Origin: an uncultured Bacteroidales bacterium
GTDB lineage: Bacteria; Bacteroidota; Bacteroidia; Bacteroidales; JAAYJT01
Length of the DNA: 64,000 bases
Reading direction: 5' to 3'
Assembly (NCBI GenBank): GCA_964419945.1
Contig: CAYQRU010000001.1
Location: 29,441 to 93,440, forward strand
Each line of letters opens with the position of its first letter. Within the stretch, counting starts at the first letter, position 1. Shown here piece after piece: positions 25,549 to 44,000 of the stretch. The notes beneath the pieces are model-generated. The model searched no databases, was not told the origin of the DNA, and saw nothing but the letters and a program-made list of their open reading frames with translations. The position numbers were made by a program, and so were the translations under genes.

Positions 25549-28500
25549 ATGAAAAAGATCATTACACTTATGGTCATGGTGGCTTTGGTTATCTCTTCAG
25601 CCATCGCACAAAATCCCTTCGGTAATGGCTCCGATGGAGTTTTGACAGTTAACCTTACCGAAACTATAACTATCAATACTGAGCGGGCTGCAGTTTCTGG
25701 TTATAATCCGGCAGGAAACAATACTATTTTTGTTGACAACCCAAACGGTATTGAAGTCGGCGATGAAGTTCTGATTATTTGTATGACCGATCCCGAAACC
25801 CCCATTGCGGAGAATATTGTGGGACAATGGGAAACACACTATGTTTCAGCCAGTGGATTTAATTTTATTGTACTTGAAACACCCCTGGTCAATTCTTACA
25901 ATGCCGCAAGCGGAAAGAAACACCAGGTGGTAAAAATTCCAAATTACACTCTGGTAGAAGTTAATGGTACCCTTACGTGTCCTGCATGGGACGGTAGTAG
26001 CGGTGGGATTTTATTTTTCAGGGCAAGCCAGGAAGTGGAAGTTTATGCTACCGGCATTATCACTTCCACCGGAAAAGGCTACCTAGGAGGCAGTCAGTTT
26101 GGAGATGGTCATGGTGGAGGCCAGGGAGGTGAAAGTTTTACAGGCTCAGGTGGTTATGGCGGGCATTCTTATGATCCTCATGGAAAAACCGGAGCCGCAG
26201 GTGGAGGTGCTTATTATGCGAACAAGAATGGTGGACATGCCATTTCGGGTGGCGGTGGCGGTTCTACCGGAGGAAGTATTGGTCTTGGCTCAACAAATAC
26301 AGGCGGAGCCGGTGGTGGCGGTGGCGGGCATACCGGAAGTGGCGGTGGTGCGGGTTATGGTACTTCCGGCTTTGGCGGCAATAGCTATAATAATAGCAAT
26401 AATGGACAAAACGGGGGTGAAAATTATTCAGGAAATGGTGGCAGCAATTACACCGGTGGCGGAGGCGGAGGCGGTGGAACTTATGGTTCAGCCGAACTCA
26501 GCAGACTTTTTCAGGGTTGCGGTGGTGGTTGTGGTGGCCGTCATGATGGATATACTCCTGGTTTTGGCGGTGCTGGAGGCGGATTACTTTATATCTCAGC
26601 AAGTGCTGTTGAATGTGCCGGAATCATTGTTTCTGCAGGTGGAAATGGAGGTAATGGTACGACATATTGCGGCGGCGGTGGCGGAGGAGCAGGGGGCTCA
26701 TTGTTGATTCAGGCTGTGGACATGAACCTGTCTAATAGTATCAGCACAGCCGGAGGGACCGGCGGAAGCAGCTATTATGGCAATAATGGGGGAAATGGTG
26801 GTAACGGACGCATCAGATTGAATTACTTCAATCTGGTTAATACCGGAACAATTACCCCCGATCCTTACATCAGCCAATTTGCTGCAAATATATTCCATCA
26901 TCCTCTCGTAAATACCAGTAACATCACCGGCCCCTATACAGTGTCGGCTTTAATTTATGATAATGAAGGTGATCCCATTACTTCAGCAAGCATTTATTAC
27001 AGGATAAATGGTGGAGCATTTTCACAGATCGTAATGAGCGAGAATAAAAACCTTCAGTCTTTTACAGGCAATATTCCAGGTCAGGTAGCTAATTCAACCA
27101 TCGAATATTATTTAAATGCTACTGATGGTACTGATATTTACACACTTCCACTGAGTGCCCCGGATGATCTTTTCAGTTTCCAGATTACCGGCCTTCCGGT
27201 CAGTGCATTTTCAGTAACTGATAACAACAACGGCACTGTCAGCCTCAACTGGAGAGAACCTTTGGAGATGACCTTCTTTACACATTACAGCATTTACCGC
27301 AGCGAGCAGGATGGATTCATTCCCAATTCGTTTAACCGCCTGGACAATAATATCACTGATACTACATATCTCGATATTACTGCTCAGGATTTTCATACCT
27401 ATTATTATGTTATTTCAGCCAACTTTAATTTCGGTGGAACAGTGGTTGAAGCGTTTTCAAATCAGTTATCGCTTCTGGTCAGTAACACAAGCCAAACCAC
27501 CGTACTCGGATATGCTTTTCTTGAGGACAGGAGTAACCATGCAAACATTAAGGTTAAATTTTTACCCCTCTCACCCAGCGCAGTTGCCGACAGCATTTAC
27601 ACCAACGCACTCGGATATTTCGAGTCACATAATATACTGCCTGGTATTTATACCATCATACTGAGCAAAACTGGCTTTCAAACTACTTATATCCGGGAGA
27701 ATTTGCTTATTCTCCAGGACACAGACCTTGGAGAATCAACTATTTATGATATGGGCACCACTGTTTCGGGCAATGTGTCAGGAAACTGGGAAGGTTTTTA
27801 CAGTGTTTCCGGAAACATTACCATTCCACAGGGGGACTCACTTATTATTGGTGCAGGAACAAAAATCCGTTTTCTAGGAGACTATGCTATGATTGTCTAC
27901 GGATACCTTGCCTGTAATGGTGCTGAAGGTGATACGGTACTTTTCACCTCAGCCCCGGCAAACCAGAACCAGCAGCCCAACCAATGGCAGCGTATTCGCT
28001 TTTACGACGCTGCCAACGATAATTCATACCTGAAATATACCAAAATTGAATACGCCAATGATGGTTTATACTTCGGATGGAGCGGGGCTTTGGTTGAAAA
28101 CTGCCTGATTCAGCGACATCAACGATATGGCATTTATTTTGAAAACTCTTATGCTGCCGTAATAAAAAATACCACAATAAGGAATCTGGGAGATGATGGA
28201 TTTCATTTGCAGGCATCGTATGTATCAGCCAGGAATGTGAATATATCTGATTACACCCACGAAGGCGCTTACCTGAACAACTACTCAAAACTTACCATCA
28301 GTTCGTCTGTGATACAAACAGGTCAATCAGGTGTTTATCTGGAAAATAGTTCTAATATTCAAGCTGATAGTTGCACCTTCACAGGAAATACTGAAATGGC
28401 ACTGTTTTTTCATTATTGCTATAGCAGGGGAAAAGTTACCAATTGTACAATTATCTCAAATTACAGGGGAATTTACCTGTACCATGTGTCGAGTCCGCAG

Positions 28501-31500
28501 ATTCTTAATAATGTCATAACCCAAAATTCCTGGGTTGGCATTGAATACTACTACGATTGCGATGCCCTTATCAAAGGAAACCAGATCATCAGTAATAATT
28601 ACGGAATTATTTTTAATTCTTCAAGTCATTACTGCGAGACACTGATAACGGGAAACCTGATAGCAAACAATACGGAAGATGGTATTCATAAAAACTCACA
28701 CACGGGTTATGTAACCAATCCTACAATAACCTACAATACCATTGCCGGCAATGGCAGATATGGCATTTATCTCGACAGGCCCGGTACGGAGGTCATCACC
28801 AATAATATTATTGTGAATAATGGCGCATGGGGTGTTTGTAATATTACAGCAGTTGAATCATTCGAAAATAACAATGTGAACGCAAATGCTTCAGGTGCAA
28901 TCTATAATCTTGCCAATATGCCTGTAGCCACATGGAACTTTGTATCAATAAATCCGAATAACAACGCGGTGTGCGATATTTACCGCAATATCAATGAAGA
29001 TCCTGTGTTTATGGGAACCGGATCTGAATTCTACCATCTTCAGGCTGTATCAAAGTGCATAAACGGTGGTACAAGTACCGTTTCAGATCCCGATGGCTCT
29101 ATCTCCGATATTGGCGCCTTCCCCTTTGATTTGGGGAATCCTCACCGGTTGTATACTACAGGAACCGGAGACCAGTATGTTTCGCTCGCCTGGGAGCCGG
29201 TTGGTAACGATTCACTCATTGATTACAATGTTTATTACAGACTTTCAGGGTTAAAAACCGCTTATACCTTTTTCGGGAATACAGCCGATACTGCTATCAA
29301 TGTTACTGGTTTGACCAATAACGAGCTGTACGATTTTACTATAACCGGCAATTATACTGACTATGAATCACCCTATGCACCTGAAGTAAGTGAGAAACCC
29401 GGAATTTCTTCAGCAGATTACGATCCAGGCTCTTTCAGTGTGTTAATCCCCACCGGATCACCCAATGCGGTTGAAAATTTCACCATTACCAATAACGGAA
29501 CAAGGGATCTGCATGTACAATTTGCCGAAGGTAACCCCAACCAGGCTTACGCTTACTTTGACGGCAGTGGCGATTTTGTGAGTTATGGTTACAAGAGTCA
29601 TTTGCAGGGGATGAGTGCGATGACAATGGAATGCTGGATATATCGCCAGAATAACGGCCATTTTGAGTTTATGGGAAAGTATTTCAGAAATTATCAACTG
29701 GCCATCAACAGCGGCCAAAGGGTGCATTTCTATAAAGGATACGGGACCATCAGCAATTATTCTTATCAGGAATGGGATACCTGGTATACAATCAATGCCA
29801 ACCAATGGTATCACATTGCTATGACCTGGCAGGGATCAACCTTGCGGTTGTACGTTAACGGAGCATTAGCCTGGTCAACAAATGATGCAAACTCAAATCC
29901 CATTCCGCTTGATTTTCACCAATACCCTTTTGAATTTGGCCGGAGGTCTGGCGAGAATTCTTATTACTTCCAGGGCCGGCTGGCCGAAGCCCGCATGTGG
30001 AATTATGCCCGCTCACAGGAGGAGATCAACAACAACATGTTTACCTCCCTCACAGGCAATGAAGAAGGTCTTTTAGGGTACTGGCCTCTGAGGGACGACT
30101 TCAATGACTACTCCTCTTACGGGATCAGTGGAACTCCGTATGGTAATGTAAACCTGCAGGCATCCGGAAACCTACCTTTTACCTTGTTTTCGGTTCCGCA
30201 GACTAACTATCAGGTAGCACCCGGACAATCTGAGATTATTCCGATCACCTTTATCAACCGTACTGATGTAAATTCAAAATATTTTACCACCAGATTGTTT
30301 TCCGATGATCCGGCAAAAAGTGATTATGAGATGGAAATCTTCCTTCAGTATGGCGAGATCGTTCCTGCAACCCCGGTATATTTCATCCCTGTGGCAGCTA
30401 CCGGAAAACCATACCCAATCGTAATAAAGGATGCTAAAATTGATGGCCAGACCATCGCCGTTGGCGACGAGATTGGGGTGTTTGACGGGGAGTTATGCGT
30501 TGGGGCAGGTATTTTTAACGGTACATTCAACTTTATCATCACAGCATGGGAAAGTGATCCTGCAAAGAGCCAACCAGGATTTACACCCGGAAATAATATG
30601 TCGTTCAGAATGTATGATACATCTGCCGACCTTGAAACCAACGAAGCAGAAGAGACCTATTTTATTGGCGATGATACCTTCGGTTACGGTTCTTTCTCGG
30701 CATTATCGCTCCTTGCCTCAGTGTTCAATATTCAAAGTGTGCCGGTTACGGGTGGACAGTTCAATCTTGTTTCGTTTAACATGTTTCCACGGTATGCCAA
30801 TGCATGGACAGTTTTCGGAGGTCTGGGCAACTTGCAGATTGTTTACAACGACGATGGCCAGGTACTCATTCCCGCATACAACATCAACACCATTGGTGAT
30901 ATCAATTTTTTAGATGGATTTTATCTTTTCAGCAATCAGAACGAAACCATTGAATACGAAGGCACTTTTATCCGCGCTGAGGACTGGGACATCACTGTGC
31001 AACCTAACAAATGGAACTATATCGCCATGTTGAGCCACAATCCGGTTGCTGTTACTGATGTATTTGCAGGATTGGAGAGCAGCATCAGCATTGTTCAGTC
31101 AGCAACGGGTAATGCCTGGATTCCATCCGAAAGTATTAATACATTGGGCAATATGCAACCCGGGCAAGGATATAAAATTGCCCTTGCGGTACCCAATCCT
31201 GTCACTTTTAGCTATCCTGCTTCAGGCAAATTCAGTCCTGCTTATGTACAAAATGTCTCTGGTCCTTCAGTCAAAGGCAAAGAAATTTCCCATTTTGATT
31301 TTACTGTTACAGGCCTGCCTTATGCAGTGATAGTAAGATTGATACCTGCATCCATTGCACTTTATGGTCTTGAACCCGGTGACGAGATCGGACTTTTTGA
31401 CGGGCAACAGTGCGTTGGAGCAGCTATCTATGAGGGATTTGACCAGTTGCTGATCACCACATGGCAAAAAGACCTGGCTCAGGGATTAAATGGTTATACA

Positions 31501-31923
31501 CCGGGGCATACTATCACTGCGGGAATTTACAGGCAATATTTTGGGTCAGAAACCAGGCATATGCTTAAAAAACCTTCAGGTGCTGTACCAACGTTTGGTG
31601 AGGGCAATTTTGCCAAAGCAGTACTTGATGTTGTGCCTGCAAGCGAAGAACCCATAAATTTCAATATCCAGCCTAATCCATTTAAGAACAATACTCTGAT
31701 AACACTTGGCTTGAATCAGAAGGAATATATTCGGTTAAGCGTTTATGACAATACAGGCCGCATGGTTAAAACCTTTGTCAACGGGCAACTGTCTCCTGAA
31801 ACATACTTTTTCAATTGGTATGGCACCGATGGAATTGGTAATAAATTGCATCCGGGTGTATACTTCATGATAACTGAAACTTCAGGAAGGATCATTACCG
31901 AAAAAGTGATTATTCTGCAATAA
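25549..31923 (+). CDS. 2124-aa secreted mosaic protein. Order: Gly-rich beta-helix-like N-region, Fn3, CarboxypepD_reg-like, right-handed parallel beta-helix (PbH1/NosD-like) repeats, Fn3, LamG, two copies of a ~115-aa module shared with the next gene, T9SS CTD.
   Basis: Signal peptide MKKIITLMVMVALVISSAIAQ. Poly-Gly tracts lie at ~26090-26830. PbH1-like repeats are seen (GIYFENSYAAVIKNTTI, GVYLENSSNIQADSCTF, GIYLYHVSSPQILNNVI, GIIFNSS, GIYLDRPGTEVITNNII). The LamG tail motif is LAEARMWNYARSQEEINNNM. The C-terminus NIQPNPFKNNTLITL...GVYFMITETSG is a T9SS CTD. Confidence 0.85.
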   Translation: MKKIITLMVMVALVISSAIAQNPFGNGSDGVLTVNLTETITINTERAAVSGYNPAGNNTIFVDNPNGIEVGDEVLIICMTDPETPIAENIVGQWETHYVSASGFNFIVLETPLVNSYNAASGKKHQVVKIPNYTLVEVNGTLTCPAWDGSSGGILFFRASQEVEVYATGIITSTGKGYLGGSQFGDGHGGGQGGESFTGSGGYGGHSYDPHGKTGAAGGGAYYANKNGGHAISGGGGGSTGGSIGLGSTNTGGAGGGGGGHTGSGGGAGYGTSGFGGNSYNNSNNGQNGGENYSGNGGSNYTGGGGGGGGTYGSAELSRLFQGCGGGCGGRHDGYTPGFGGAGGGLLYISASAVECAGIIVSAGGNGGNGTTYCGGGGGGAGGSLLIQAVDMNLSNSISTAGGTGGSSYYGNNGGNGGNGRIRLNYFNLVNTGTITPDPYISQFAANIFHHPLVNTSNITGPYTVSALIYDNEGDPITSASIYYRINGGAFSQIVMSENKNLQSFTGNIPGQVANSTIEYYLNATDGTDIYTLPLSAPDDLFSFQITGLPVSAFSVTDNNNGTVSLNWREPLEMTFFTHYSIYRSEQDGFIPNSFNRLDNNITDTTYLDITAQDFHTYYYVISANFNFGGTVVEAFSNQLSLLVSNTSQTTVLGYAFLEDRSNHANIKVKFLPLSPSAVADSIYTNALGYFESHNILPGIYTIILSKTGFQTTYIRENLLILQDTDLGESTIYDMGTTVSGNVSGNWEGFYSVSGNITIPQGDSLIIGAGTKIRFLGDYAMIVYGYLACNGAEGDTVLFTSAPANQNQQPNQWQRIRFYDAANDNSYLKYTKIEYANDGLYFGWSGALVENCLIQRHQRYGIYFENSYAAVIKNTTIRNLGDDGFHLQASYVSARNVNISDYTHEGAYLNNYSKLTISSSVIQTGQSGVYLENSSNIQADSCTFTGNTEMALFFHYCYSRGKVTNCTIISNYRGIYLYHVSSPQILNNVITQNSWVGIEYYYDCDALIKGNQIISNNYGIIFNSSSHYCETLITGNLIANNTEDGIHKNSHTGYVTNPTITYNTIAGNGRYGIYLDRPGTEVITNNIIVNNGAWGVCNITAVESFENNNVNANASGAIYNLANMPVATWNFVSINPNNNAVCDIYRNINEDPVFMGTGSEFYHLQAVSKCINGGTSTVSDPDGSISDIGAFPFDLGNPHRLYTTGTGDQYVSLAWEPVGNDSLIDYNVYYRLSGLKTAYTFFGNTADTAINVTGLTNNELYDFTITGNYTDYESPYAPEVSEKPGISSADYDPGSFSVLIPTGSPNAVENFTITNNGTRDLHVQFAEGNPNQAYAYFDGSGDFVSYGYKSHLQGMSAMTMECWIYRQNNGHFEFMGKYFRNYQLAINSGQRVHFYKGYGTISNYSYQEWDTWYTINANQWYHIAMTWQGSTLRLYVNGALAWSTNDANSNPIPLDFHQYPFEFGRRSGENSYYFQGRLAEARMWNYARSQEEINNNMFTSLTGNEEGLLGYWPLRDDFNDYSSYGISGTPYGNVNLQASGNLPFTLFSVPQTNYQVAPGQSEIIPITFINRTDVNSKYFTTRLFSDDPAKSDYEMEIFLQYGEIVPATPVYFIPVAATGKPYPIVIKDAKIDGQTIAVGDEIGVFDGELCVGAGIFNGTFNFIITAWESDPAKSQPGFTPGNNMSFRMYDTSADLETNEAEETYFIGDDTFGYGSFSALSLLASVFNIQSVPVTGGQFNLVSFNMFPRYANAWTVFGGLGNLQIVYNDDGQVLIPAYNINTIGDINFLDGFYLFSNQNETIEYEGTFIRAEDWDITVQPNKWNYIAMLSHNPVAVTDVFAGLESSISIVQSATGNAWIPSESINTLGNMQPGQGYKIALAVPNPVTFSYPASGKFSPAYVQNVSGPSVKGKEISHFDFTVTGLPYAVIVRLIPASIALYGLEPGDEIGLFDGQQCVGAAIYEGFDQLLITTWQKDLAQGLNGYTPGHTITAGIYRQYFGSETRHMLKKPSGAVPTFGEGNFAKAVLDVVPASEEPINFNIQPNPFKNNTLITLGLNQKEYIRLSVYDNTGRMVKTFVNGQLSPETYFFNWYGTDGIGNKLHPGVYFMITETSGRIITEKVIILQ
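31651..31920 (+). other. Type-A T9SS CTD of the 2124-aa protein.
   Basis: PINFNIQPNPFKNNTLITLGLNQKEYIRLSVYDNTGRMV...PGVYFMITETSGRIITEKVIILQ. Confidence 0.85.
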
Positions 31924-32005: not shown

Positions 32006-35000
32006 ATGAATGCAAATAATATCAATATAAAAAACAGGCTGTTAAGCACAATCGTGCTCCTGATGCTTATCGCCGGAGCCCAAACTGCATTTTCACAAAA
32101 TTTTGCACTTAACTTTGATGGGAACGGGGATTTTGTGAATTTTGGAAATCCATCCGGGTTGCAGATTACAGGAAATCAAACCATTGAGATGTGGATTTAT
32201 CCAACTGCTCTGGATGCCAGACGTAACCCGGTGGCAAAAGCTTACGGTGGCGAGGGTACTGTTACGCTCGAAACCGATGGGTCTTTGTCATATTACTATG
32301 GCACCGGCGGTGGAAACAATAATCCTTACCAGGGAATTGGCTCTACCCCGATCCAGGCAAACACCTGGACACATATTGCCATTGTCAGAGACCTGACAAC
32401 CATGCGATTGTACTGGTATATCAACGGTAATCAGGTAGTGCATATTCCTGCGCAGTTTTCCTACGCCCAGAGCAGCACACTTCCTTTTTATATCGGCAGG
32501 GGTTATGTCAGCGATTTTAAAGGGATGATTGATGAGGTTAGAATCTGGAATGTGGCACGCTCTGCCTCAGAAATTGTGGCTTTTAAAAGCGTTGGATTAA
32601 CTGGCTCTGAGTCGGGACTGGCTGCTTACTGGCCTTTTGATGAAGGCAGCGGAACAATCATATCCGACAATACCTCCAGCGGCAACAACGGCACACTAAA
32701 TGGCAATACAGGTTTTGTTGCCAGTACGGCACCCATTATTCCATATCAGCCCGGCGGAGAACCCTTCGAACCAGTTCCACCAACCGGACTGCCTTATACA
32801 ATTGTCCTTTCAAATCTTACTATCAACGGAGAAGATATTTCATATGGTACCCAGATTGCTGTTTTTGACGATGAATTATGTGTAGGAACCACTTTTTATG
32901 ATGGCGAACCCAATCAGAGCCTTATAGCCTGGGAAGCTGATCCGGGTCAGAATCTCGCCGGTTTTACAGCCGGCAACCCCATGTCGTTCAAATTTCATGC
33001 TGCCTGGTATTCCGAACCGGTAAATTTCGACGCAGATGTAACCATCATGAAAGGGGATGGAAATTTCGGTTATGAAACTTTCAGCGTTGTAAATCTGAAT
33101 GCAATCACAACATTGGCTCCTGAAATAATGCTTTCTGCTGAATTGATGAATTTCAATGCGGTTATTGTGAATCAAAGCATTTCACTGCCTCTCGCTTTTG
33201 AAAACACCGGAACGGCAAATCTCTTCATTGGTTCAATGCAAAACAATACAACCTTTTTTACCAGGTCGGCCACCTCATTACTTATTGAGCCCGGTACACG
33301 CGATACCCTTTGGATCACCTTTACCCCTTTATCTGTAACTACTTACAGTGATATTCTGACATTTGTAACTGATGATCCAGGATTGCCTTCGGTAACAATT
33401 CCGCTTCACGGAACCGGGCTGCCGGTGCCAACACCTCAGATCACAGTTACACCTTTGAACCTGAATTTTGGCAGCATTGCCATGAATACATCCAAAACAA
33501 TGGTGATTAATATTTTAAATTCCGGAAACGGTAATTTATTGATTACCAATGTCACTTCATCCAATACAGCGTTTTCTGTATTGGGAAATACTGCCTTTTC
33601 GCTGGGGCAAAATGAAAATATCAATGTTGCCATGTCATTTGCGCCTGTGCAGGCCGGGGCTTACACCGGGCAGCTTACAATTCAGAGCAACGCACAGAAT
33701 ATAACGGTTCCGCTGTCCGGTATCGCTTTGCAGGGGCACTTCAGTGTTGTGTCTCCCACCGGAAAACCCTATGCTGTTATTGTCGAAAATGTTGATATTG
33801 ATGGCTTTAGCCCGCTTACTACCGATGAGGTAGCTGTTTTTGACGGAGAACTTTGTGTGGGAGTCGGTTCGTACGCTCAAGGCGGCAACAGCCTTCAGTT
33901 GAGTGGTAATGGTTATGTGATAAACAATAATTCCAACGCTTTTGATCTGCAGCAACTCACGATATCCGCATGGGTATATTCTTCCAATTTCAATCAAAAT
34001 GGGTTCGTATTTGAAAAAGGACCTGTAAACAGTCAGTATTCTTTGTTTTTTGAAGGCAGCAACATCAATTTCAGAACCTATCACACATCAGGCGGTTACG
34101 ACGATTTTTATCTGAACTGGTCTTCGATAGGAATTCAAAACAACAAATGGAATCACATCACAGCCACCTATGATGGTGTTCATAAACGTATGTATGTCAA
34201 CGGTCAGTTGAAAGCTATATTAAGTTACAACAAGACGCTGCGTACAGGTCAGGTAGGCCAGATCATTGGTGCTTACGGTGGTTCCGGTTCGAATTCTTAC
34301 TTCTTCAATGGAAATATTGATGAGGTCAGGGTTTGGAATCATGCGCGTTCGGTTTTTCAAATACAAAAGGAAATGTACCGGCAATTGGTTGGAAATGAAC
34401 CCGGACTGGTTGGCTACTGGAACTTTAACGATGGTAACATCAATAACCTTGTAGCAGGTTCAACACCTTCCTATCTTTCAGGTAATGCAAACACTCAGGG
34501 AATACAAAATATTGAAATTCTGACAAAATTAATGATTACTGCCTGGGAAAAGGATTTGCAACTGGGTTTGCCAGGTTATACTTCTGGCAATCCAATGAGT
34601 TTTAAGGTTTGGACTGAGGTTTACGATAATTGGGTAGAGGTCGAAACTATTCCGGAATATATTGTTGGTGATGGCAATTTTGGCTTCGGACAGTTGAGTA
34701 TCGTAAATCTCGAAGGGACTTCAGGATTGCAACCTGATATAGATGTAGCAGTTGAAAATATTTATGTGGGGCAGGTAACTGTTGGCTCGAGCGTCCAGAG
34801 TATTTTGCAGGTTACGAATCAGGGGAATGCTCCGCTTCAGATTTATGTAAGTGATAATTCGGATGTTTTTAGTACCGATATTGGTAACACAACAATTGCT
34901 CCGCTCAGCGCGACAAACATTCAGGTTACTTTTGCACCAGCTACCGCAGGAGGCTATGCAGGACTTTTGACAATCTCAGCCAATGATCCGGACCAACCGA

Positions 35001-38000
35001 CGGTTACTGTGGGGCTAGAAGGTTTTGCACTGCCTGCAGGAGTTGCCAATATTGCAACATCGGTTAACAGCCTGAACTTTGGTAATGTGATCAACGGCAC
35101 ATCCAAAACAGTATCTCTTTTTATTATTAATACAGGAACTTCGGCTCTCACCGTCAGTAATATCACGTCAGGCAATGCTGTTTTTTCTGTTAGTCCGACT
35201 GCGTTTACTTTGCCGAATACCAATGATATACGGGAAGTATTTGTAACATTTCAACCGGGAAACAAAGGTCTTTTCAGTGCTCTGCTGACTATCTCTTCCA
35301 ATGCTCCTCAAAAACAGATAAGCCTTTCAGGAATAGGATTTGACAATCACTTTGGAATTACAGAACCTACCGGAATACCTTACACGATTATCGTTCAGCA
35401 GACAAACCTGCAGGGATCAATCTTACCTGGGGATGAATTATCGGTTTTTGATGGTGGATTGTGCGTAGGCATGGTAAACAGTTTTACCGGATCAAATACG
35501 CAGTCGGTCAGATTTAACGGGAGCAACGCTTATCTCCAGGTTCCGAATACCGCTTCATTGAATCCTGCTGCAATAACAGTTGAATCCTGGGTTAAAACAA
35601 CTGATGGTGGTGCGTCAAGATCCATTCTGAGTAAAACGAATGGTTGTGCCAGTTCTGGATATCTCATGTGGTTGAACCAGAATGGGGTTGGAGCCGGCAA
35701 ACCCGGTTTCTGGGTGGGTGATGGCCCCTGGCTTGATGCAAATGTAACCGTTCACGACGGCCAATGGCACCATATAGCCGGTACTTTCGACGGAACAACT
35801 GCTAGGATCTATGTGGATGGTGTGTTGAGCAATTCAAGGGTTTCAACTGAGAACCTCTCGTCTTCCAATGCTTTGCAGATTGGAGGTTCTACCTATTGCG
35901 GAAACTTGCTGAACGGAAATATTGATGAGGTCAAAATCTGGAATTATGTCCTTACACCTCAACAGGTTCAGCAATCTATGAACAGCATTCCACAGGCAAA
36001 TTCAGCAGGTCTCGTTGGATATTGGCCGTTTGAAGGAGATTTCGACGATAAATCGCTCAGTAATCACCACACACAGGTACTGGGATCACCGGTTTTTGAA
36101 ATCATTGCCCCTCAACTGCTTAATGAACTTGAAATGATTATCGTTGCCTGGCAGGCCGATCCCGGCAACAATCTTCCGGGATATACTCCCGGTAATCCCA
36201 TGTCATTCAAATTATGGACTGGCATAAATGGTTTCCCGACCGAGTTAACTGCATCGGCAAATTATATAATTGGTGATGGTACTTTTGGTTTTGGGCAATT
36301 CTCGATCGTGAACCTGGATTTTAACCTTCCTGCAATTAATGTTGATCCGGAAGAAATTTTTGTTGCCCTGGCCGAGCCTGACTCAACAGAAGTTACCCTC
36401 ACAATATACAATACCGGAACCGGTGACCTGCGGTTCAGCTTACCTGATCCATTCACCAACGGAAAGTTCAGGGCTTCTTATTATTACAGTCCCGGCACCG
36501 GGGCATCACCGAACTTTGGAACTTTCATGTTTGAGATTGATGACGAATATATTGATAGTAGCTGGGGAAATGGTGGACCCGGTAACGGTGTTGGCAACGA
36601 CGATTTTCAGATAAAATGGATAGGTAAGATATATGCTGAAAGTGCCGGAAATTACCAGTTCAGAAGCTACACGGATGATGGGCTGAGATTATATATTGAC
36701 GGGCAGCCCGTTATTAATCAATGGTATGACATGGCTACAACGAATCACTATGGCACGGTTAGCCTTTCCCAGGGTTTTCATGATCTCGAATTTCATTATT
36801 ATGAAAATGGTGGATGGGCTGATGCCTATCTGTACTGGACCCCACCCGGTCAGGCAGAAGAACTGGTTCCTGCAGCAAATCAAAGTTGGATGAGTATCTC
36901 ACCCTCATCGGGTATAATCGCTCCTGCTCAGTATGTTGAAATTACAATCTCCTTTAATTCCACCGGCTTGATAGATGGTTTATACGCTGCTGATTTGTTG
37001 ATTGTCAACAACACTTCCACACAATCACCGCTTGTTGTTCCGACCCTCATGAATGTTACGGGCACTCCTCAGATCTCATCATCTTTACCTGAAGTAAATT
37101 TTGGCCAGGTGGTTGTAAACAGTACGTTGGAAAAGAGTTTGAATATTATGAATATCGGTACCCAGGCTCTTATCATACAGGATATTTTTGTTCAGGATGA
37201 GATAAACAGCGGATTTACTTACCAATTGAATGATAAATCTTTTCCTTTAAGCATTGATCCGGGGCAATCCATTGTTACTGTTATTGCTTTTACACCTTTA
37301 TTGCCCGGTGAAGTAAATGATACCCTGATGATATTATCAAATGCCGGGAATGCTGAAACCTATTTAATTCCACTGTCGGGTTCAGGGATCACCCCACCTG
37401 AGATTTTTCTGACCGAAACTGTTTTTGAGTTATCCTATGTATGCAATGACCAGTTCACCGATTCTCTGAAAATATTCAATTTCGGCCAGGACACTTTAAG
37501 TGTTAGCATGAGTTCTGATCAAACCTGGCTTGCTACTAATCCCGTTCAGGCTCATATTGCCGGCGGTGACAGTATCAGTGTTACAATACACATTTCAACA
37601 CTTGATTTATTTGCGGGTGTTCATGAAGCTTTCCTGAGTATCCAGTCGAATGACCCCGGCCAGCCACTCCTGGAAGTGTTATGCACATTAACGGTTACAG
37701 GCGATCCAGCCATCCTTTGCAACGATTTTCTGAACATGGGCTCAGCAAACATTGGCGATACTTTAGTGGGTCAACTGACAGTAGCTAACAGCGGTTGCGA
37801 TGTACTCGAAGTATTTTCGGTTGGGATTCAAAGCCAGTTTCCGGTATTTTCGGTGCTGAATCCTGCTTTTGAGGTGCAGCCTGGTGATGCAGCTATTTTG
37901 CAGATCGCTTTCGTTCCATTGGCTTCAAATCAGTATAATGCCATCATCACCATCAACACCAACGATCCGGCAACTCCGGCTTTTGATGTTGTTGTATCGG

Positions 38001-41000
38001 CAACGGGGATTGAACCTCCAAAACTATCAGTTATTCCACAGAATATATCAGAAATATTACAGTCAGGCACTACCGGACAGGAATCTTTCAGCGTTAAAAA
38101 CACAGGTGGCCAGGTGCTTGAATTCAGTACTGTCAAAGATCCGGTAAATCCTTTTATGCTCCACCTCGATGGCAATGGCGATTATATCAATGTTGTGCAT
38201 GCTCCGGCGCTGAATCCCACTCAGGAGATAACACTTGAAGCATGGATTTACCTGATTGATAATGTGAACGAATTCATAATAGGGAAGGAAAATTCAACCG
38301 AGGGCAAATACCGTCTTTTGGTGAACAGCAGCAGTCGCCTGGAGTTCAAACTTAACAATCTGCATGTTATCACTTCAAACACTGTTGTCGTTAAAAATCA
38401 GTGGTATCATGTGGCAGCGACCTTTGACGGATCTACCATGCGGATTTTCATCAATGGTGTTCAGGATGTTGTTCAAACATTTGACCCGTTCACCATCGAG
38501 CCCAATACGGATAACCTCCGGATTGGAAGGTCATACCAGTTTCACTACTTCTATGGCAGGATTGATGAGATTAGGATATGGAGCATTGCCAGAAATCAAT
38601 CAGAAATTCAAAGCGCTATGTACCAGCATCTACTGGGTTCCGAACCTGAATTGCTGTTGTATTTCCCTATTCTGAACTTAACCGGAAGTATTGTTACTGA
38701 TGCTTCAAACAATCCGCATAACGGAATTTTGTTTGGCAATCCGGTAATATTGGGTGCAACTGTTCCATTTACAGATTATCTCACAATCTCAAACGGAAAC
38801 GGAAACCTGACTGCCAACCAGCAGCAAAATGTACTGCTCAGTTTGGGTACCGCCGGGTATTTTGCACGCAACTATCAAAGGCAGCTTTCTGTGAGCAGCA
38901 ATGCCGTCATTAACCCGGTGCAGCAGGTTACGCTTGACTTTACCATTGAAGGAAGCAGCAATATTGTTCCCAATCCTGCACAGATTACCTTTGAGGATAC
39001 TTATATAGGATTAATGGACACTTTGGAACTCATTCTTCCAAATTCAGGCGCAATGGCCGCCGGCATAACTGAAATATCGTTCAGCTCTCCGGTTTTTTCT
39101 GCGCCTGTTCCGGTCAGCAAGGTTTTCCCGTTTTCACAACGTACACTGCTGATTGTTTTTGAACCCCAACTGGTGCAGTTGTATGAAGCAACTCTGACCA
39201 TATCAACCTCAGACGGGAAATCACAACAGATTGAAATTCCTCTCACTGGTTTAGGTCTTAGTCCGCCTGTACCTGATTTTTCACCGGTTGCTGCAAACTT
39301 TGGTCAGGTTGTCATAAACAACACAAGTGTTGTTGGGATCACTCTGTCCAATCTGGGCAATCCACCTTTGGAAGTTTATTCTTATTCATTTTCTGATCCT
39401 GCTTACTTCAGCAGTGACCTGGCGGTTCCTTTCGCATTGAATTTTGAACAGCAGGTGCAGTTTAATGTTTCGTTTACCCCACTTAATTATAATGCTATCA
39501 GTGAATCAATGGTTTTCAATACCAATGTGGGTCAGGTCAGTCTTCCTCTCAGCGGTACGGGAACACCACCGGATCATGATCTTGCAATCACACAGATTAT
39601 ATCTCCGCAAAGCGGATGCGGATTAAGTGCTTCAGAAATAGTAACTGTAAGAATAAGAAATTTCGGGATGCTTCCGCAAAACAATTTTGATGTCGCATAT
39701 TCACTGAATAATGGCGCTGATGTTGTTGAAACGGTGAATCAAACCATTCTATCCGGCGATGTACTTAATTATATATTTTCCCAAACCCTTGATCTTGCTG
39801 TGACAGGAGGTTATGGACTGCGTGCATTCACAATGCTGGGATCAGATCAAAACAAAGCAAATGATACATTAAGTGTCACCATCACCAATTCACCATCAGT
39901 AGGCATGATAAGTGATATGTTGCCGCCTGACAGCACATTCAGTGTTTCAGAACCTGTGGTGTTTTCATGGAATCCTGCGGCAAATGCCACTTTTTATGAT
40001 CTCTACCTCTGGCGCACCAACCAGCAGAAGCCCTCAATACCCACAGTTTCAGGTATTACAGCAACTACATACACCTACCTTGATTACCTGAATAAGAATT
40101 ATCTGTATAAGTGGCAGATTGTAGCCCGCAACCAGTGCTCGCAGAGCTTAAGCCCAATCCATGTATTCTCATTCAATGTTTTCAGCGATCTTATGGTTAC
40201 CTCTGTTGACGCTCCGGTCACGGCAACTTCAGGGCAGCCGGTAAACATCTCCTGGAATGTTAAAAATTTCGGAACGGGCGGTACGGGCATCATACCCTGG
40301 AAAGATGATGTGTACCTTTCGCCATCAACATTCTTTGATGTGAATACGGCCGTAAAAGTAGCTTCGCTGAGTAATCTGTCGGCACTGGTACAAGGTCAGA
40401 GTTATACCAATACGACAACCATTACGCTCGATCCATATCTGAATGGAAATCACTATGTATTTGTGCGAACTGACGTTAACAACACCATACAGGAGGTGAA
40501 CGAGAACAACAATATACAGCGCACAGAGAATCCAATGCTCGTCAGCCTGCCGCCTTATCCTGACCTTGCTGTTGGCAACATACAGTCGCTGGGTGGAAAC
40601 ATTATCCCGGGTCAGCAACTGACTGTTGGCTGGACTGTTGGAAATACCGGCGATGCTTCAGCTATTGGAGGTTGGAGCCAGCGTGTGGCGATTGTGTCAG
40701 ACGCACAGACATATGTTCTTGGTTTTGTTCAGAGCATTGAAAGCCTCGATCCACTTGTTGAGTTGAACCTTAGCTCCACCTTTATGGTACCCCATCAGTT
40801 GGGAATGGACGGGGAAGTATATCTGCAGGTTCGGATCACACCAAATCCTGCACTAATTGAGAAGCCCAATGCAACAGCTAACAACACAGCATTGAGCAAT
40901 CAGGGAGTATTGCTTGAACAGCGACTTTTCCTGTCTCTGCCACAGCCAACGCTTCCTGAAAACGCCGGCTCACCCATACAATGCATAGTCAACAGGAGCG

Positions 41001-44000
41001 GAAGCAGGGCAAGTGCACTGAGTGTGAGTTTTGATGTTTCTCAGGAGAACAGAATTACCATTCCGGCTTCAGCGATTATTCCGGCAAACCAGGCAGGAGC
41101 TGCTTTTCAGGTCGCTGCAATCAACAACACCTGGATAGAAGGAAACATTGATGTGGTAATAACGGCTTCAGCCGCCGGCCATCCTGATGCTATTGCAAAT
41201 CTTGCTGTTATTGACGATGAGGTACCTTCGCTAAACTTGAATTTGAGCGTTGGCAGCGCAAACGAAGGTGATACCTTCCAACTGACACTTACAAGGGATG
41301 TGGTTTCGGCCAATCCTTTGAATGTTATGCTGTCTGTCAGCAAGGCCAATCAACTTGTATTACCTGCCAGCATGACAATTCCTGCCAATGAGGCTTCGGC
41401 AGTTATGTCGGTTGAGGTGATAAACAACAGCACACCTGAACTTACTGAGGCTGTTGCCATCAATGCCTCAGCGGTTGGATTTATACCTGCCACTGCAAAT
41501 ATTACCATTCTTGACGAGGATATACCGCAGCTTTCACTCACCATTATTCCCTCTGTGGTTTCTGAAGGAGCTGGCCCTTATGCTTCCTGGGCAACACTGC
41601 AATTGAATTCTCCTGTCATTGCCAATCTTATTGTGGTTATTTCTGCCGAAACAGCAGGCCAGCTATTCTTTCCCTCATCTGTAAGCTTTGCTCCGGGGCA
41701 AATTCAGAAGCAGTTCAATATCGGGGTGGTTGACAATGGAATACTCGATGGTGACAGAACTGTCGCTGTGACGGCTGCTGTGTTTATTTCGTCATGCAAT
41801 TGTGGCGCTCCCCCCGAAACCGGAGGAGCTGATACTCAAAATATTAACATACTTGATAACGATGGTTTGTCGCTTTCGGTAAATTCAACGCCATTTTTGG
41901 TACCTGAAAATCAAACTAACGCAGGATTGCTCACCATCACGAGAAATACAACTGGAGGCCCGCCAATCGCTGTAAATATTCAGCATAATGGCCCAAATGA
42001 AATATTGCTGCCGTCTTCTGCTGTGATTCCTGAAGGAGCTACTTCCGTGAATGTTCCGTTCAGCACACTCGATGATGGGATCAGCGATGGCGATCAGGTC
42101 GTTACAATTTCTGTTACATCCCCCGATTTTACTCCCGGATCGTGTTGGATCATTGTTACTGACAAAAACCTGCCTGATTATGTTGCTCAGGAGCTTACCT
42201 TATCGCAGGCTGAAATCCTTATCAATGATTCTGTGGGTATGAGCATTTGGATCGCAAACAAGGGCTTTGCCCCGGCACCCGCCAACGCCGAAGTCAGGTT
42301 TTACAGATCAGCCAACAACCACCTCGATAACAGCGATCTTTTAATTGCAACCCAAAACATCCCGGCTATTCTGAATTTAGGCGACTCCGTCCAGATTGGA
42401 GCATTCTATAAACCAGTGGATGTTGTGGGCAATTTCTTTATCATTGCATCGGTAAACATGAACGGGACAATTACCGAATTGATCGGGATTAATAATACCT
42501 CATCCGCAGTGCCATTTGCTATCCTTCCCGATTATACAGCTACGGCCTCAGTAGCTGGCGATGTTTTCAACGGCACTGCGCCCATTATCATCACCGGCAC
42601 CACACAAACCGTAACCAGAGGTCCGGTACCCAACAAGGCTGTGGATGTTTACGTGGTTGTTAACGGTACCCGGCGCGTGCTTAATGCGGTAAGTGATCAG
42701 AATGGGACATTCAGTTTGAATTTTATTCCATTGAACGGCGAAGGAGGTGCATACCATGTTGGTGCCTGCTATCCGGGTCAGAATCTGGATGTGGCACAGG
42801 ATGAATTCACAATCCTTGCTGCCCGGCACAATGCTTCAGGTTATATTATCTGGAATATGTGGCTAAACGAAACAAGGGATTTTACACTTGAATTAATGAA
42901 TATCAGCCCGCTCGGACTGAACAATCTTCAACTCGAGGTATTATCTGGCCCCCCTGGTTGTATAGTAAATTTTACACCTTTGAGCTTACTTCCTGGCAAC
43001 GCGACAGCTCTGTTGAATTATTCCGTAACCGCTACTGAAGTTACAACCGGTACGCTCTATGAAGAAGTTAAACTGCAACTTACCAGTGCGGAAGGCACTA
43101 AATTCAGGTTCAGTGCCTGGTTTTTCAGCCAGGCAACCATGGGAAACCTGAAACTTACTCCTGCCTCTCTAAACAAGGCAATGGTCACAAATGCCATCAA
43201 TTATGCTGAATTTGAAATACTCAATAACGGTTTGGCTGAAACCGGGCAAATAACCATTCAATTGCCTCAGGCCAACTGGCTTTCCCTGGCCAGCCCCCCA
43301 ACCATTGAATCACTCATGCCCGGGCAAAAAGCGATAGTAACGCTCAAACTCATGCCCGGCAGCGATTTGCAACTGAATAATCCGATCAGTGGTCAGATTG
43401 CTTTATCCGGTACGAACTCAAACAGTGTTCTGTTACCCTTTTTATTCGAACCCGTTTCGCTTGAAACCGGCAACCTGCTGGTGGATGTGGTGGATGAGTA
43501 CACATACAACACTGTCGCTGCACCCCATTTGCAGGGTGCAACGGTGACGCTGTCGCATCCTTACAGCGGTCAGGTGATTGCACAGGGTATAACAGATGAG
43601 AACGGGCATTTTCTTGCAGAAGGTATCTATGAAGGTACTTATATGTTGCATGTGCAGGCTCCGCAACATGCCAGCTATCAGAATATCGTTTTTATTGAAA
43701 AGGGTGTAACCAGGACTCAACTGGTGTTCATCGCATTCCAGGCTATTACGTATACCTGGCAGGTAGTTCCTACCTTGATTCAGGATCAGTATGAAATAAA
43801 ATTAATCACTGTTTTTGAAACCAATGTACCCGCTCCGGTGGTTGAGATGAACATGCCGGATACACTCCCTCAACTGGGTGTTGGAGAGGTATTTCCATTC
43901 CTCCTCACGCTTACAAACCGCGGGTTGATCACCGCACAGGATGTAGAGATAACATTTCCGGATGATGAGGAATATATGTTTATCGCCAATGTCAATACCC

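What the first reader, a model, noticed from the sequence alone, without database searches (positions are those of the whole stretch)
30361..31640. Unassigned ~115-aa module shared between the 2124-aa protein and giant B
The 2124-aa protein contains two copies, at 30361-30720 and 31293-31640. Giant B contains three: 32780-33110 intact, and two split copies (see the next finding). The signature is TG(K/L/I)PYx(I/V)(I/V)(I/V)...(I/L)xG......(G/T)DE(I/V)(G/A/S)VFDGxLCVGxxxx...(I/L)(I/T)AW(E/Q)xDxxxxxxG(F/Y)TxGNxM(S/T)F(K/R)x(W/Y)...(G/I)GD(G/D)(N/T)FG(Y/F)G.FS...L. I do not recognise it as a named family. Because it is shared by adjacent genes, the two genes have exchanged modules. It is also a candidate docking surface for the locus dockerins, although this is speculative.
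Basis: seen in the sequence. Interest (0 to 1): 0.55.

Follow-up and report, generated by a model that had tools for sequence, protein, structure and literature searches.

The report
Unnamed beta-sandwich module of surface proteins
The repeated ~115-residue module is real and belongs to a large, widespread but still unnamed family of small beta-sandwich domains found in secreted, cell-surface-anchored bacterial proteins; the two neighbouring genes inherited their copies long ago and did not swap them recently, and nothing tested supports the idea that it is a dockerin receptor.

Summary
There are five copies: two in the 2124-aa protein, and one intact plus two split copies in giant B. There are no others in the window. 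No Pfam, NCBIfam or PDB sequence match exists for these copies or for 55 diverse relatives.

AlphaFold2 gives a very confident seven-stranded beta-sandwich (pLDDT 96) with no significant Foldseek match.

The family is large. In the 147 best representative proteins I counted 499 intact and 21 split copies, up to 15 per protein. It occurs in MAGs of Bacteroidales, Ignavibacteriota, Marinimicrobia, Cloacimonadota, Lentisphaerae, Verrucomicrobia and others. The proteins inspected are exported, and most carry a surface anchor: a T9SS C-terminal domain, a dockerin or IPTL-CTERM.

Each window copy is closest to the copy at the same position in orthologues from other organisms (58-78% identity, against 26-50% among the window copies). 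The A-then-B gene pair with the same module layout recurs in about 15 MAGs, so the copies are old paralogues and recent exchange is not supported.

The split copies are true LamG insertions in the beta3-beta4 loop. Two orthologues have the third copy intact.

The cohesin-like docking idea has no support: the module has no cohesin sequence or fold similarity, and a canonical cohesin lies next to a module-dockerin gene elsewhere. The most likely role is a surface-displayed binding or accessory module; this is an inference.

The parts
30382..30726 (+). Module copy A1 (aa 1612-1726 of the 2124-aa T9SS protein), intact
   Evidence: HMM independent E-value 2.3e-51. Best external match is P0184 aa 1608-1720 at 78% identity.
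31291..31647 (+). Module copy A2 (aa 1915-2033), intact and the most divergent copy. It lies directly before the T9SS C-terminal sorting domain (aa 2042-2122).
   Evidence: HMM independent E-value 7.5e-42. Por_Secre_tail at aa 2042-2122 is a weak match (E 0.0013, 19.4 bits, below Pfam's 27-bit cut-off). Best external match is P0184 aa 1915-2022 at 58% identity.
32765..33115 (+). Module copy B1 (aa 254-370 of giant B), intact. This is the copy that was modelled.
   Evidence: HMM independent E-value 8.6e-53. AlphaFold2 pLDDT 96.1, pTM 0.89, seven strands.
33737..33883 (+). B2 N-terminal half (aa 578-626; strands beta1-beta3)
   Evidence: HMM positions 1-56, independent E-value 8.2e-19. Confident strands in the model of the split copy.
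33884..34516 (+). LamG/ConA-like domain nested in the beta3-beta4 loop of B2 (aa 627-837)
   Evidence: Pfam Laminin_G_3, three stretches in the N-terminal 1664 aa of giant B. The model of the split copy matches pentraxin/LamG structures at E about 1e-8.
34517..34729 (+). B2 C-terminal half (aa 838-908; strands beta4-beta7)
   Evidence: HMM positions 41-116, independent E-value 1.9e-29. pLDDT 86-96 over aa 270-330 of the model.
35348..35494 (+). B3 N-terminal half (aa 1115-1163)
   Evidence: HMM positions 1-53, independent E-value 7e-16.
35495..36118 (+). LamG domain nested in the beta3-beta4 loop of B3 (aa 1164-1371). It is absent from the orthologues in L006 and L014.
   Evidence: The best Laminin_G_3 stretch is aa 1171-1322. 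Pairwise alignment with the orthologues shows a clean gap of about 200-215 residues.
36119..36334 (+). B3 C-terminal half (aa 1372-1443)
   Evidence: HMM positions 50-115, independent E-value 2.7e-28.
25549..31923 (+). Host gene A, a 2124-aa exported protein: signal peptide, Gly-rich region, right-handed beta-helix, fn3, LamG, two modules, T9SS tail
   Evidence: Pfam scan and translation.
32006..48787 (+). Host gene giant B, 5593 aa: LamG, then three units of [module + two ASH/HYDIN-type Ig domains], then PA14, further LamG, CARDB, CarboxypepD_reg and a T9SS tail
   Evidence: Pfam scans and translation.

Best explanation
The module is an autonomous, exported domain of about 110 residues with a seven-stranded beta-sandwich fold. 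It belongs to a large, ancient family that has no name in Pfam, NCBIfam or the PDB. The family is spread through FCB-group and PVC-group bacteria, all of them uncultured MAGs in this sample.

In every protein inspected the domain is exported, and most of these proteins carry a cell-surface anchoring device. It occurs in four settings:
- as the only cargo of small proteins built as signal peptide + module + T9SS C-terminal domain, dockerin or IPTL-CTERM;
- in tandem arrays of up to 15 copies;
- alternating with ASH/HYDIN-type Ig domains in giant adhesin-like proteins;
- as an accessory to enzymes such as an S8 subtilase.

In this window the five copies are old paralogues inherited with a conserved A-then-B gene pair. 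They are not products of recent exchange. The beta3-beta4 hairpin loop of the module tolerates insertion of a whole LamG (lectin-like) domain, so two copies in giant B act as hosts that display a nested LamG.

Inferred mechanism: the module is a surface-displayed binding or accessory unit (adhesin or CBM-like, for a glycan or protein ligand, possibly Ca2+-dependent), and not an inert spacer. Two observations point that way. It is the sole payload of many anchored mini-proteins. It also keeps a strongly conserved polar/aromatic signature across phyla: G-D-E-I-G-V-F-D, C-V-G, A-W..D, G-F..G-N, W, E.

Shown: the family, the fold prediction, the distribution, the architecture, the nested insertion and the age of the copies. 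Inferred: the binding function and the ligand.
For: - **Copies and significance:**
- **No named family:**
- **Fold:** pLDDT 96.1, pTM 0.89, seven strands. There is no Foldseek hit at E<=1e-3 in the PDB or BFVD.
- **Family size:** the deep HMMER search found 4907 clusters at E<=1e-3 and 532 at E<=1e-30. All 147 newly returned proteins among its 150 best hits hold at least two stretches matching a module-only HMM. Together they carry 499 intact and 21 split copies.
- **Small single-module proteins:** Sec signal peptides are visible in those read in full. C-terminal anchors are a T9SS C-terminal domain, a dockerin or IPTL-CTERM.
- **Partner domains:** ASH/HYDIN Ig, FG-GAP, Peptidase_S8, PPC and Por_Secre_tail.
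- **Taxonomic spread:**
- **Positional orthology of each copy:**
- **Conserved A-then-B layout:** about 15 MAGs.
- **No long DNA identity between copies:**
- **Nested LamG:** orthologues L006 and L014 have copy 3 intact, with a clean gap of about 200-215 aa exactly after the C-V-G strand. In the model of the split copy both halves are confident and reproduce the strand order of B1. The insert matches pentraxin/LamG folds.
- **Conservation profile over 628 copies:**
Against: - No ligand, metal site or interaction was demonstrated.
- I had no access to model coordinates, so I could not show that the conserved polar residues cluster on one surface.
- Strong conservation of G/D/F/C/V could partly reflect folding constraints such as tight turns and the core.
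- The module often sits directly before the T9SS C-terminal domain, like the IgSF domain of gingipain RgpB. That placement would also fit a purely structural or secretion-related role.
- The 4907-cluster count comes from a profile that also contained C-terminal tail columns, so it is an upper bound.
Confidence: 0.72

Rival explanations
1. The module is a purely structural spacer or stalk domain, comparable to Ig-like repeats in giant adhesins or to the IgSF domain preceding the T9SS C-terminal domain in gingipains. It would serve only to extend and space the functional domains (LamG, PA14, beta-helix) away from the cell surface.
For: - It forms tandem 'beads on a string' arrays of up to 15 copies.
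- It alternates with ASH-type Ig domains.
- It is frequently the last domain before the T9SS tail.
- Weak Foldseek resemblance to CnaB/pilin and RgpB Ig-like sandwiches.
Against: - More than 100 small proteins of 350 residues or fewer carry the module, and many consist of only a signal peptide, one module and an anchor. These would have no function if the module were only a spacer.
- The polar/aromatic signature is conserved across phyla at 60-100% per position, which is unusual for spacer Ig-like repeats.
Confidence: 0.2
2. The module is a non-canonical, cohesin-like receptor for the dockerins encoded in the locus (C-termini of the 744-aa and 708-aa propeller proteins). It would tether those proteins onto the giant surface proteins.
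For: - Real Dockerin_1 domains flank the giant genes.
- No canonical cohesin was found in any window ORF scanned.
- The module is displayed on T9SS-anchored scaffolds, as cohesins are in the Cloacimonadota scaffoldin-like proteins described in PMC8542988.
Against: - There is no Cohesin HMM hit.
- hhalign against a canonical cohesin gives probability 0.2%.
- The fold has seven strands in about 110 aa, and no cohesin appears in the top 50 PDB matches.
- The module is itself fused to dockerins in P0001, P0003 and P0012.
- 1.5 kb downstream of P0001 lies an S8 peptidase with a canonical cohesin (E 4.9e-13), a dockerin and a T9SS tail. So module-bearing organisms have ordinary cohesins, and there the module looks like the docked payload.
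- Homologues of the 744-aa protein (66-71% identity) have no module gene within 10 kb. At least one ends in a T9SS tail where the window protein has a dockerin.
- About 30 kb of the source contig lies outside the window and was not examined.
Confidence: 0.06
3. The adjacent genes recently exchanged modules, by recombination or gene conversion between the 2124-aa gene and giant B.
For: Only the adjacency of two genes sharing the same module.
Against: - Copies in A versus copies in B are 26-44% identical. Each is 58-78% identical to its positional equivalent in orthologues from other organisms.
- There is no extended DNA identity between copies.
- The same layout recurs in Bacteroidales, Lentisphaerae, Verrucomicrobia and Neomarinimicrobiota MAGs.
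Confidence: 0.02

Closest known systems
Ig-like / prealbumin-like beta-sandwich accessory modules of bacterial surface proteins (CnaB, the RgpB IgSF domain, CarboxypepD_reg, ASH/HYDIN-type Ig)
   Same: Size of about 100-115 aa, an all-beta sandwich, extracellular location, tandem arrays in giant adhesin-like proteins, and placement just before a T9SS C-terminal domain. These are the best, though weak, Foldseek neighbours.
   Different: There is no significant structural match: the best hit has E 0.013 and TMq 0.55, and the CnaB and RgpB hits have E of 0.04 or more. There is no sequence or profile match: Pfam gives nothing, and hhalign against the window's own ASH Ig region gives probability 0.1%. 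The module has its own strongly conserved signature, GDEIGVFD...CVG...W..D...GF..GN.
Cohesin (PF00963), the dockerin receptor of cellulosome-type assemblies
   Same: A beta-sandwich displayed in multiple copies on cell-anchored scaffold proteins, in organisms that also encode dockerins.
   Different: Cohesins are nine-stranded jelly rolls of about 140 aa (established knowledge). The module has seven strands in about 110 aa. It shows no HMM, profile or Foldseek similarity to cohesins. The module is found fused to dockerins beside a canonical cohesin gene.
Carbohydrate-binding modules and lectin-like accessory domains of secreted enzymes
   Same: A small beta-sandwich appended in one or several copies to enzymes (an S8 subtilase with five copies) and to surface proteins. 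It has conserved aromatic and acidic residues.
   Different: There is no match to any Pfam CBM family, and no ligand is known. Assignment as a CBM would need binding data.
Nested (inserted) domains, for example LamG/ConA-like modules inserted into a host domain loop
   Same: Two copies host a complete LamG_3 domain in one hairpin loop. Orthologues with and without the insert exist.
   Different: The host domain here is an undescribed family. The insertion is at the identical loop in two paralogous copies and is polymorphic among orthologues.

Membership tests
Cohesin (PF00963) | Significant match to the Cohesin profile | tested here: not met
   There is no Cohesin hit at E<=10 for the five copies or at E<=0.1 for 55 family members. 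hhalign of the module profile against a canonical cohesin (L077, Pfam E 4.9e-13) gives probability 0.2%.
Cohesin (PF00963) | Nine-stranded jelly-roll fold similar to solved cohesins | tested here: not met
   The model has seven strands in 117 aa. No cohesin structure is among the 50 best PDB Foldseek matches, and no match has E<=1e-3.
Cohesin (PF00963) | Ca2+-dependent binding of a dockerin | not testable with these tools
   No multimer prediction or binding assay was available.
Any Pfam / NCBIfam CBM, Ig-like or DUF family | Score above the family's gathering cut-off | tested here: not met
   The only hits are isolated chance-level ones with E of 0.017 or more.
Unnamed module family defined here | Match to the module HMM with the signature T-G...G-D-E-I-G-V-F-D..C-V-G...A-W..D...G-F..G-N...F.W...G.G.F...L | tested here: met
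   All five window copies match. 110 of 115 small database proteins match the HMM built from the window copies alone. A further 520 copies were found in 147 large proteins. Conservation table.
Unnamed module family defined here | Independent folding unit (a domain) | tested here: met
   pLDDT 96.1 and pTM 0.89 for the isolated 117 aa. It occurs as the sole non-anchor domain of small proteins. This is prediction only, with no experimental structure.
T9SS cargo (type A C-terminal-domain proteins) | N-terminal Sec signal peptide plus a C-terminal Por_Secre_tail domain in the host proteins | tested here: met
   Giant B has Por_Secre_tail at E 7.4e-12. Protein A has a weak Por_Secre_tail (E 0.0013, below the cut-off) with the typical sequence. 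Signal peptides are visible in the translations. The role of the C-terminal domain is taken from PMC8545088.
LamG / ConA-like (PF13385 Laminin_G_3), for the inserts only | Profile match and jelly-roll fold | tested here: met
   Laminin_G_3 at E 3.6e-83 with three stretches. The model of the split copy matches pentraxin, PAPP-A LamG and BACOVA_03559 at E about 1e-8.

The most novel reading that the evidence does not exclude
The module may be a new ligand-binding family: either a new CBM or lectin-like family, or a non-cohesin protein-protein docking or self-association unit. Through it, FCB- and PVC-group bacteria would assemble giant T9SS-anchored proteins, dockerin-bearing proteins and single-module mini-proteins into a surface matrix. 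The beta3-beta4 loop would serve as a natural 'display site' for nested lectin domains.
Probability: 0.3. Interest if true: 0.6.

Novelty: new member of a known kind. Interest (0 to 1): 0.35.

Why it matters
The module is a sizeable piece of protein 'dark matter'. It is a confidently folding domain present in hundreds to thousands of protein clusters from uncultured Bacteroidota, Marinimicrobia, Cloacimonadota, Lentisphaerae, Verrucomicrobia and others, and it has no family entry and no solved relative.

Naming it would improve annotation of giant T9SS surface proteins. It would also give a handle on the many mini-proteins whose only payload is this domain.

The naturally polymorphic LamG insertion in one loop is a clean example of nested-domain evolution and points to a permissive display site.

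It is not, on present evidence, a new mechanism. It is one more beta-sandwich accessory module of bacterial surface proteins.

Tried and rejected
- **Family and PDB searches.** Pfam, NCBIfam and PDB sequence searches of the copies and of 55 relatives found nothing.
- **Fold searches.** Foldseek of the B1 model against the PDB and BFVD gave only generic beta-sandwich resemblance. The best hits were E 0.013 and 0.0048.
- **Profile comparisons.** hhalign against a canonical cohesin and against the window's ASH Ig region showed no relationship.
- **First split-copy alignment.** The first alignment for the split copy (A4) was unusable. MAFFT placed the N-halves of intact modules inside the LamG, because the LamG motif 'GxIDEVRVWN' resembles the module motif 'GDEIGVFDG'. 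I fixed this by giving the N- and C-halves as separate rows (A5).
- **The search for related loci.** A1 worked.
- **Source contig.** Looking up the window's own genes to see the rest of the 93.9-kb contig failed: the products are not on record. Whether a canonical cohesin lies just outside the window is therefore unknown.
- **Context of a single-module mini-protein (P0019).** The neighbours are only housekeeping genes, which is uninformative.
- **Synteny of the 744-aa dockerin protein.** Its homologues are not next to A/B-like genes.
- **Literature.** Two searches found no paper naming this domain.
- **Recent exchange or gene conversion.** Rejected on protein and DNA identity.


Full report
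**1. The observation**

The window carries a run of very large genes on the + strand. The 2124-aa protein (25549-31923) and giant B (32006-48787, 5593 aa) were translated and the motifs located.

The five copies are real:
- A1: aa 1612-1726 (nt 30382-30726).
- A2: aa 1915-2033 (nt 31291-31647).
- B1: aa 254-370 (nt 32765-33115).
- B2: aa 578-626 plus 838-908.
- B3: aa 1115-1163 plus 1372-1443.

Otherwise the coordinates are right.

An HMM built from the five copies, run on the six-frame translation of the whole window, finds exactly these pieces and nothing in giant A or any other ORF. Independent E-values range from 8.6e-53 to 7e-16. Among themselves the copies are 26-50% identical.

**2. Is it a named family?**

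No.
- Pfam-A and NCBIfam give no hit for any copy, even at E<=10.
- A Pfam scan of 55 diverse relatives gives only five isolated chance-level hits.
- A profile search of all PDB sequences gives nothing.

**3. The family**

Word-indexed searches, which returned only proteins of up to about three times the query length, found about 110 small proteins. Of 115, 110 match an HMM built from the window copies alone.

Typical architectures are a Sec signal peptide and one module, followed by one of three anchors:
- a T9SS sorting domain (PF18962/PF13860);
- a type I dockerin (P0001, P0003; P0012 has two modules);
- IPTL-CTERM (P0007, from a Cloacimonetes MAG).

The exhaustive HMMER search of 1.84 billion representatives gave 4907 clusters at E<=1e-3, 2706 at E<=1e-10 and 532 at E<=1e-30. 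That profile included some C-terminal tail columns, so the totals are upper bounds. All 147 newly returned proteins among the 150 best hits contain at least two stretches matching the module-only HMM. Together they hold 499 intact and 21 split copies, up to 15 per protein.

Partner domains in a sample are ASH/HYDIN-type Ig domains (alternating with the module), FG-GAP, PPC, an S8 subtilase followed by five modules, and almost always a T9SS tail.

A scan of one genome per species found the module in MAGs only:
- Bacteroidales and Lentimicrobiaceae, which are closest at 62-68% identity to B1;
- Kapaibacterium and Ignavibacteria;
- Chlorobiota;
- Neomarinimicrobiota;
- Cloacimonadota;
- Fidelibacterota;
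- Gemmatimonadota;
- Lentisphaerae;
- Verrucomicrobia.

**4. Structure**

AlphaFold2 on B1 with a 55-sequence alignment gives pLDDT 96.1 and pTM 0.89. The model has seven strands, at residues 10-20, 30-35, 38-44, 51-57, 74-79, 86-96 and 106-113.

Foldseek finds no match at E<=1e-3 in the PDB. The best is the N-terminal beta-sandwich of a cyanobacterial lipoxygenase (E 0.013, TMq 0.55). After it come CnaB/pilin, transthyretin-like and RgpB Ig-like sandwiches. BFVD also gives nothing at E<=1e-3. The module is therefore a generic beta-sandwich with no close solved relative.

Conservation over 628 copies highlights these positions, numbered as in B1:
- T7;
- G28-D29-E30-I31-G32-V33-F34-D35;
- C39-V40-G41 (G41 about 100%);
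- A55-W56 and D59;
- G66 (100%), F67 and G70;
- F75, W78, E85, G97, F101 and L111.

**5. The split copies are nested-domain insertions**

The break in B2 and B3 falls in the beta3-beta4 hairpin loop of the B1 model. The inserted 208-211 residues are Laminin_G_3 domains.

Orthologues of giant B in two MAGs (L006, Lentimicrobiaceae; L014, Bacteroidales) have the third copy intact. Aligned to the window protein, they show a single clean gap of about 200-215 residues right after the C-V-G strand. L001 has the insert, like the window. Among the 147 representatives, the 21 split copies have gaps of 179-226 residues. Many sit at the same positions (about 627 and about 1160) in giant-B-like proteins.

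A model of B2 with its insert (pLDDT 78) has three features:
- confident N-half strands (11-21, 31-36, 39-45) and C-half strands (265-271, 286-295, 298-310, 320-327), which reproduce the B1 strand order;
- a confident LamG core (74-229);
- low-confidence connectors.

This model matches pentraxin, PAPP-A LamG and Bacteroides carbohydrate-binding jelly rolls at E about 1e-8. I could not inspect coordinates, so the packing of the two halves is inferred from their high confidence and from the intact orthologues.

**6. 'The two genes have exchanged modules'**

This is not supported.
- Each window copy is most similar to the positionally equivalent copy in orthologous proteins from other organisms. 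A1 is 78% and A2 is 58% identical to P0184. B1 is 70% identical to P0144. B2 is 68% identical to the split copy of P0138. B3 is 61-62% identical to P0138 and P0144. Copies in A versus copies in B are only 26-44% identical.
- DNA comparison shows only short patches of 69-83% identity at the conserved motifs.
- The arrangement recurs in about 15 MAGs. These include Lentisphaerae (L015), Neomarinimicrobiota (L017) and Verrucomicrobia (L027), as well as Bacteroidales. The arrangement is two modules at the C-terminus of the upstream gene, followed by a gene with one intact and then split copies.

The copies are ancient paralogues carried by a conserved gene pair. The module is so widespread that sharing it implies nothing about exchange.

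**7. 'Docking surface for the locus dockerins'**

The dockerins are real: Dockerin_1 occurs at the C-termini of the 744-aa protein (E 2.6e-4, just below the cut-off) and the 708-aa protein (E 2.5e-9). No canonical cohesin was found in any window ORF scanned.

The evidence against the idea is as follows.
- The module shows no cohesin similarity by HMM, by profile-profile comparison with a bona fide cohesin (probability 0.2%) or by fold.
- The module is itself fused to dockerins. On contig L077 the module-dockerin gene P0001 lies 1.5 kb upstream of an S8 peptidase that carries a canonical cohesin (E 4.9e-13), a dockerin and a T9SS tail. There the module looks like a docked payload, not a receptor.
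- Canonical cohesin scaffolds with T9SS tails have also been described in Cloacimonadota (PMC8542988).
- Homologues of the 744-aa protein (66-71% identity) in metagenome contigs have no module and no A/B-like genes within 10 kb. At least one (L078) ends in a T9SS tail where the window protein has a dockerin. The dockerin therefore appears to be an interchangeable anchoring device.

Binding was not testable here, so the idea is unsupported but not disproved. About 30 kb of the source contig outside the window could not be retrieved.

**8. Most likely function**

Shown:
- The domain is autonomous, and every protein inspected that carries it is exported.
- It forms arrays, accompanies enzymes and hosts nested LamG domains.

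Inferred: it is a binding or accessory module (adhesin or CBM-like), not an inert spacer. Many proteins consist of nothing but this module and an anchor, and the polar/aromatic signature is conserved across phyla.

The spacer reading remains a serious rival. It is supported by the tandem arrays, by the module's position next to the C-terminal domain, and by the weak resemblance to CnaB and RgpB Ig-like domains.

**9. Verdict**

- The 'unassigned' claim is confirmed.
- The exchange interpretation is rejected.
- The docking idea is unsupported.

The finding is a new, large, unnamed domain family of a familiar kind: a beta-sandwich accessory module of bacterial surface proteins. It is useful for annotation and a good candidate for structural and biochemical characterisation, but it is not a new mechanism.

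Noticed in passing
window 35495-36118 versus L006:5593-5937 and L014:5560-5892: The LamG insert in the third module of giant B is polymorphic among orthologues. It is present in the window and in L001 and absent in L006 and L014, where the module is intact. In L017 (Neomarinimicrobiota) the second copy is intact and the third is split.
   Followed up: yes
window 22709-24943 versus L078:9968-12355: The 744-aa beta-propeller protein ends in a dockerin in the window. Its 71%-identical homologue in a metagenome contig ends in a T9SS C-terminal sorting domain. This looks like swapping of the C-terminal anchor between close relatives.
   Followed up: partly
L014:1477-2202, L017:1526-2245, L020:802-1587, L021:26-850, L022:2106-2912: In several MAGs a short reading frame of about 240-275 codons, carrying a single module, lies immediately upstream of the giant-B orthologue. 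In L014, L017 and L022 it sits between the A and B orthologues. The window has no such gene in the 82-nt A-B gap.
   Followed up: partly
L077:394-978 and L077:2539-5286: A module-dockerin mini-protein (P0001) lies 1.5 kb upstream of an S8 peptidase that carries a canonical cohesin, a dockerin and a T9SS tail. This looks like a compact cohesin-dockerin system in a T9SS organism.
   Followed up: partly
window 26071-26829 (aa 175-427 of the 2124-aa protein): There is a glycine-rich low-complexity region, about 38% Gly over roughly aa 171-440, upstream of the beta-helix. A glycine-rich, halomucin-like, dockerin-bearing protein is mentioned for Cloacimonadota in PMC8542988.
   Followed up: no
window 48014-48223 and 48245-48454; also 47246-47368 and 47516-47638: Near the C-terminus of giant B, just before the T9SS tail, there are two adjacent repeats of about 70 aa (LQN...ISLAG(D/N)G...HV(N/K)AGA(H/Y)A(I/L)FRIETG..FC). 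Further upstream are two Cys-containing repeats ending in a 'YQW.LNG' motif. Pfam did not assign either pair in my scan.
   Followed up: no
window 25549-48787 and L001-L027: The gene pair (protein A, then giant B) with the same domain order is conserved in MAGs labelled Bacteroidales, Lentisphaerae, Verrucomicrobia and Neomarinimicrobiota. This suggests either an ancient cassette or horizontal transfer of a cassette larger than 20 kb. MAG binning errors cannot be excluded.
   Followed up: partly
window 33884-34516 / 35495-36118 versus the module N-halves: The LamG motif 'GNIDEV(R/K)(V/I)WN' resembles the module motif 'GDEIGVFDG' closely enough to mislead MAFFT. This is probably coincidental, but it is a trap for automated domain parsing.
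   Followed up: partly
window 53520-55997 (- strand): This 825-aa ORF has no Pfam family at E<=1e-3.
   Followed up: no
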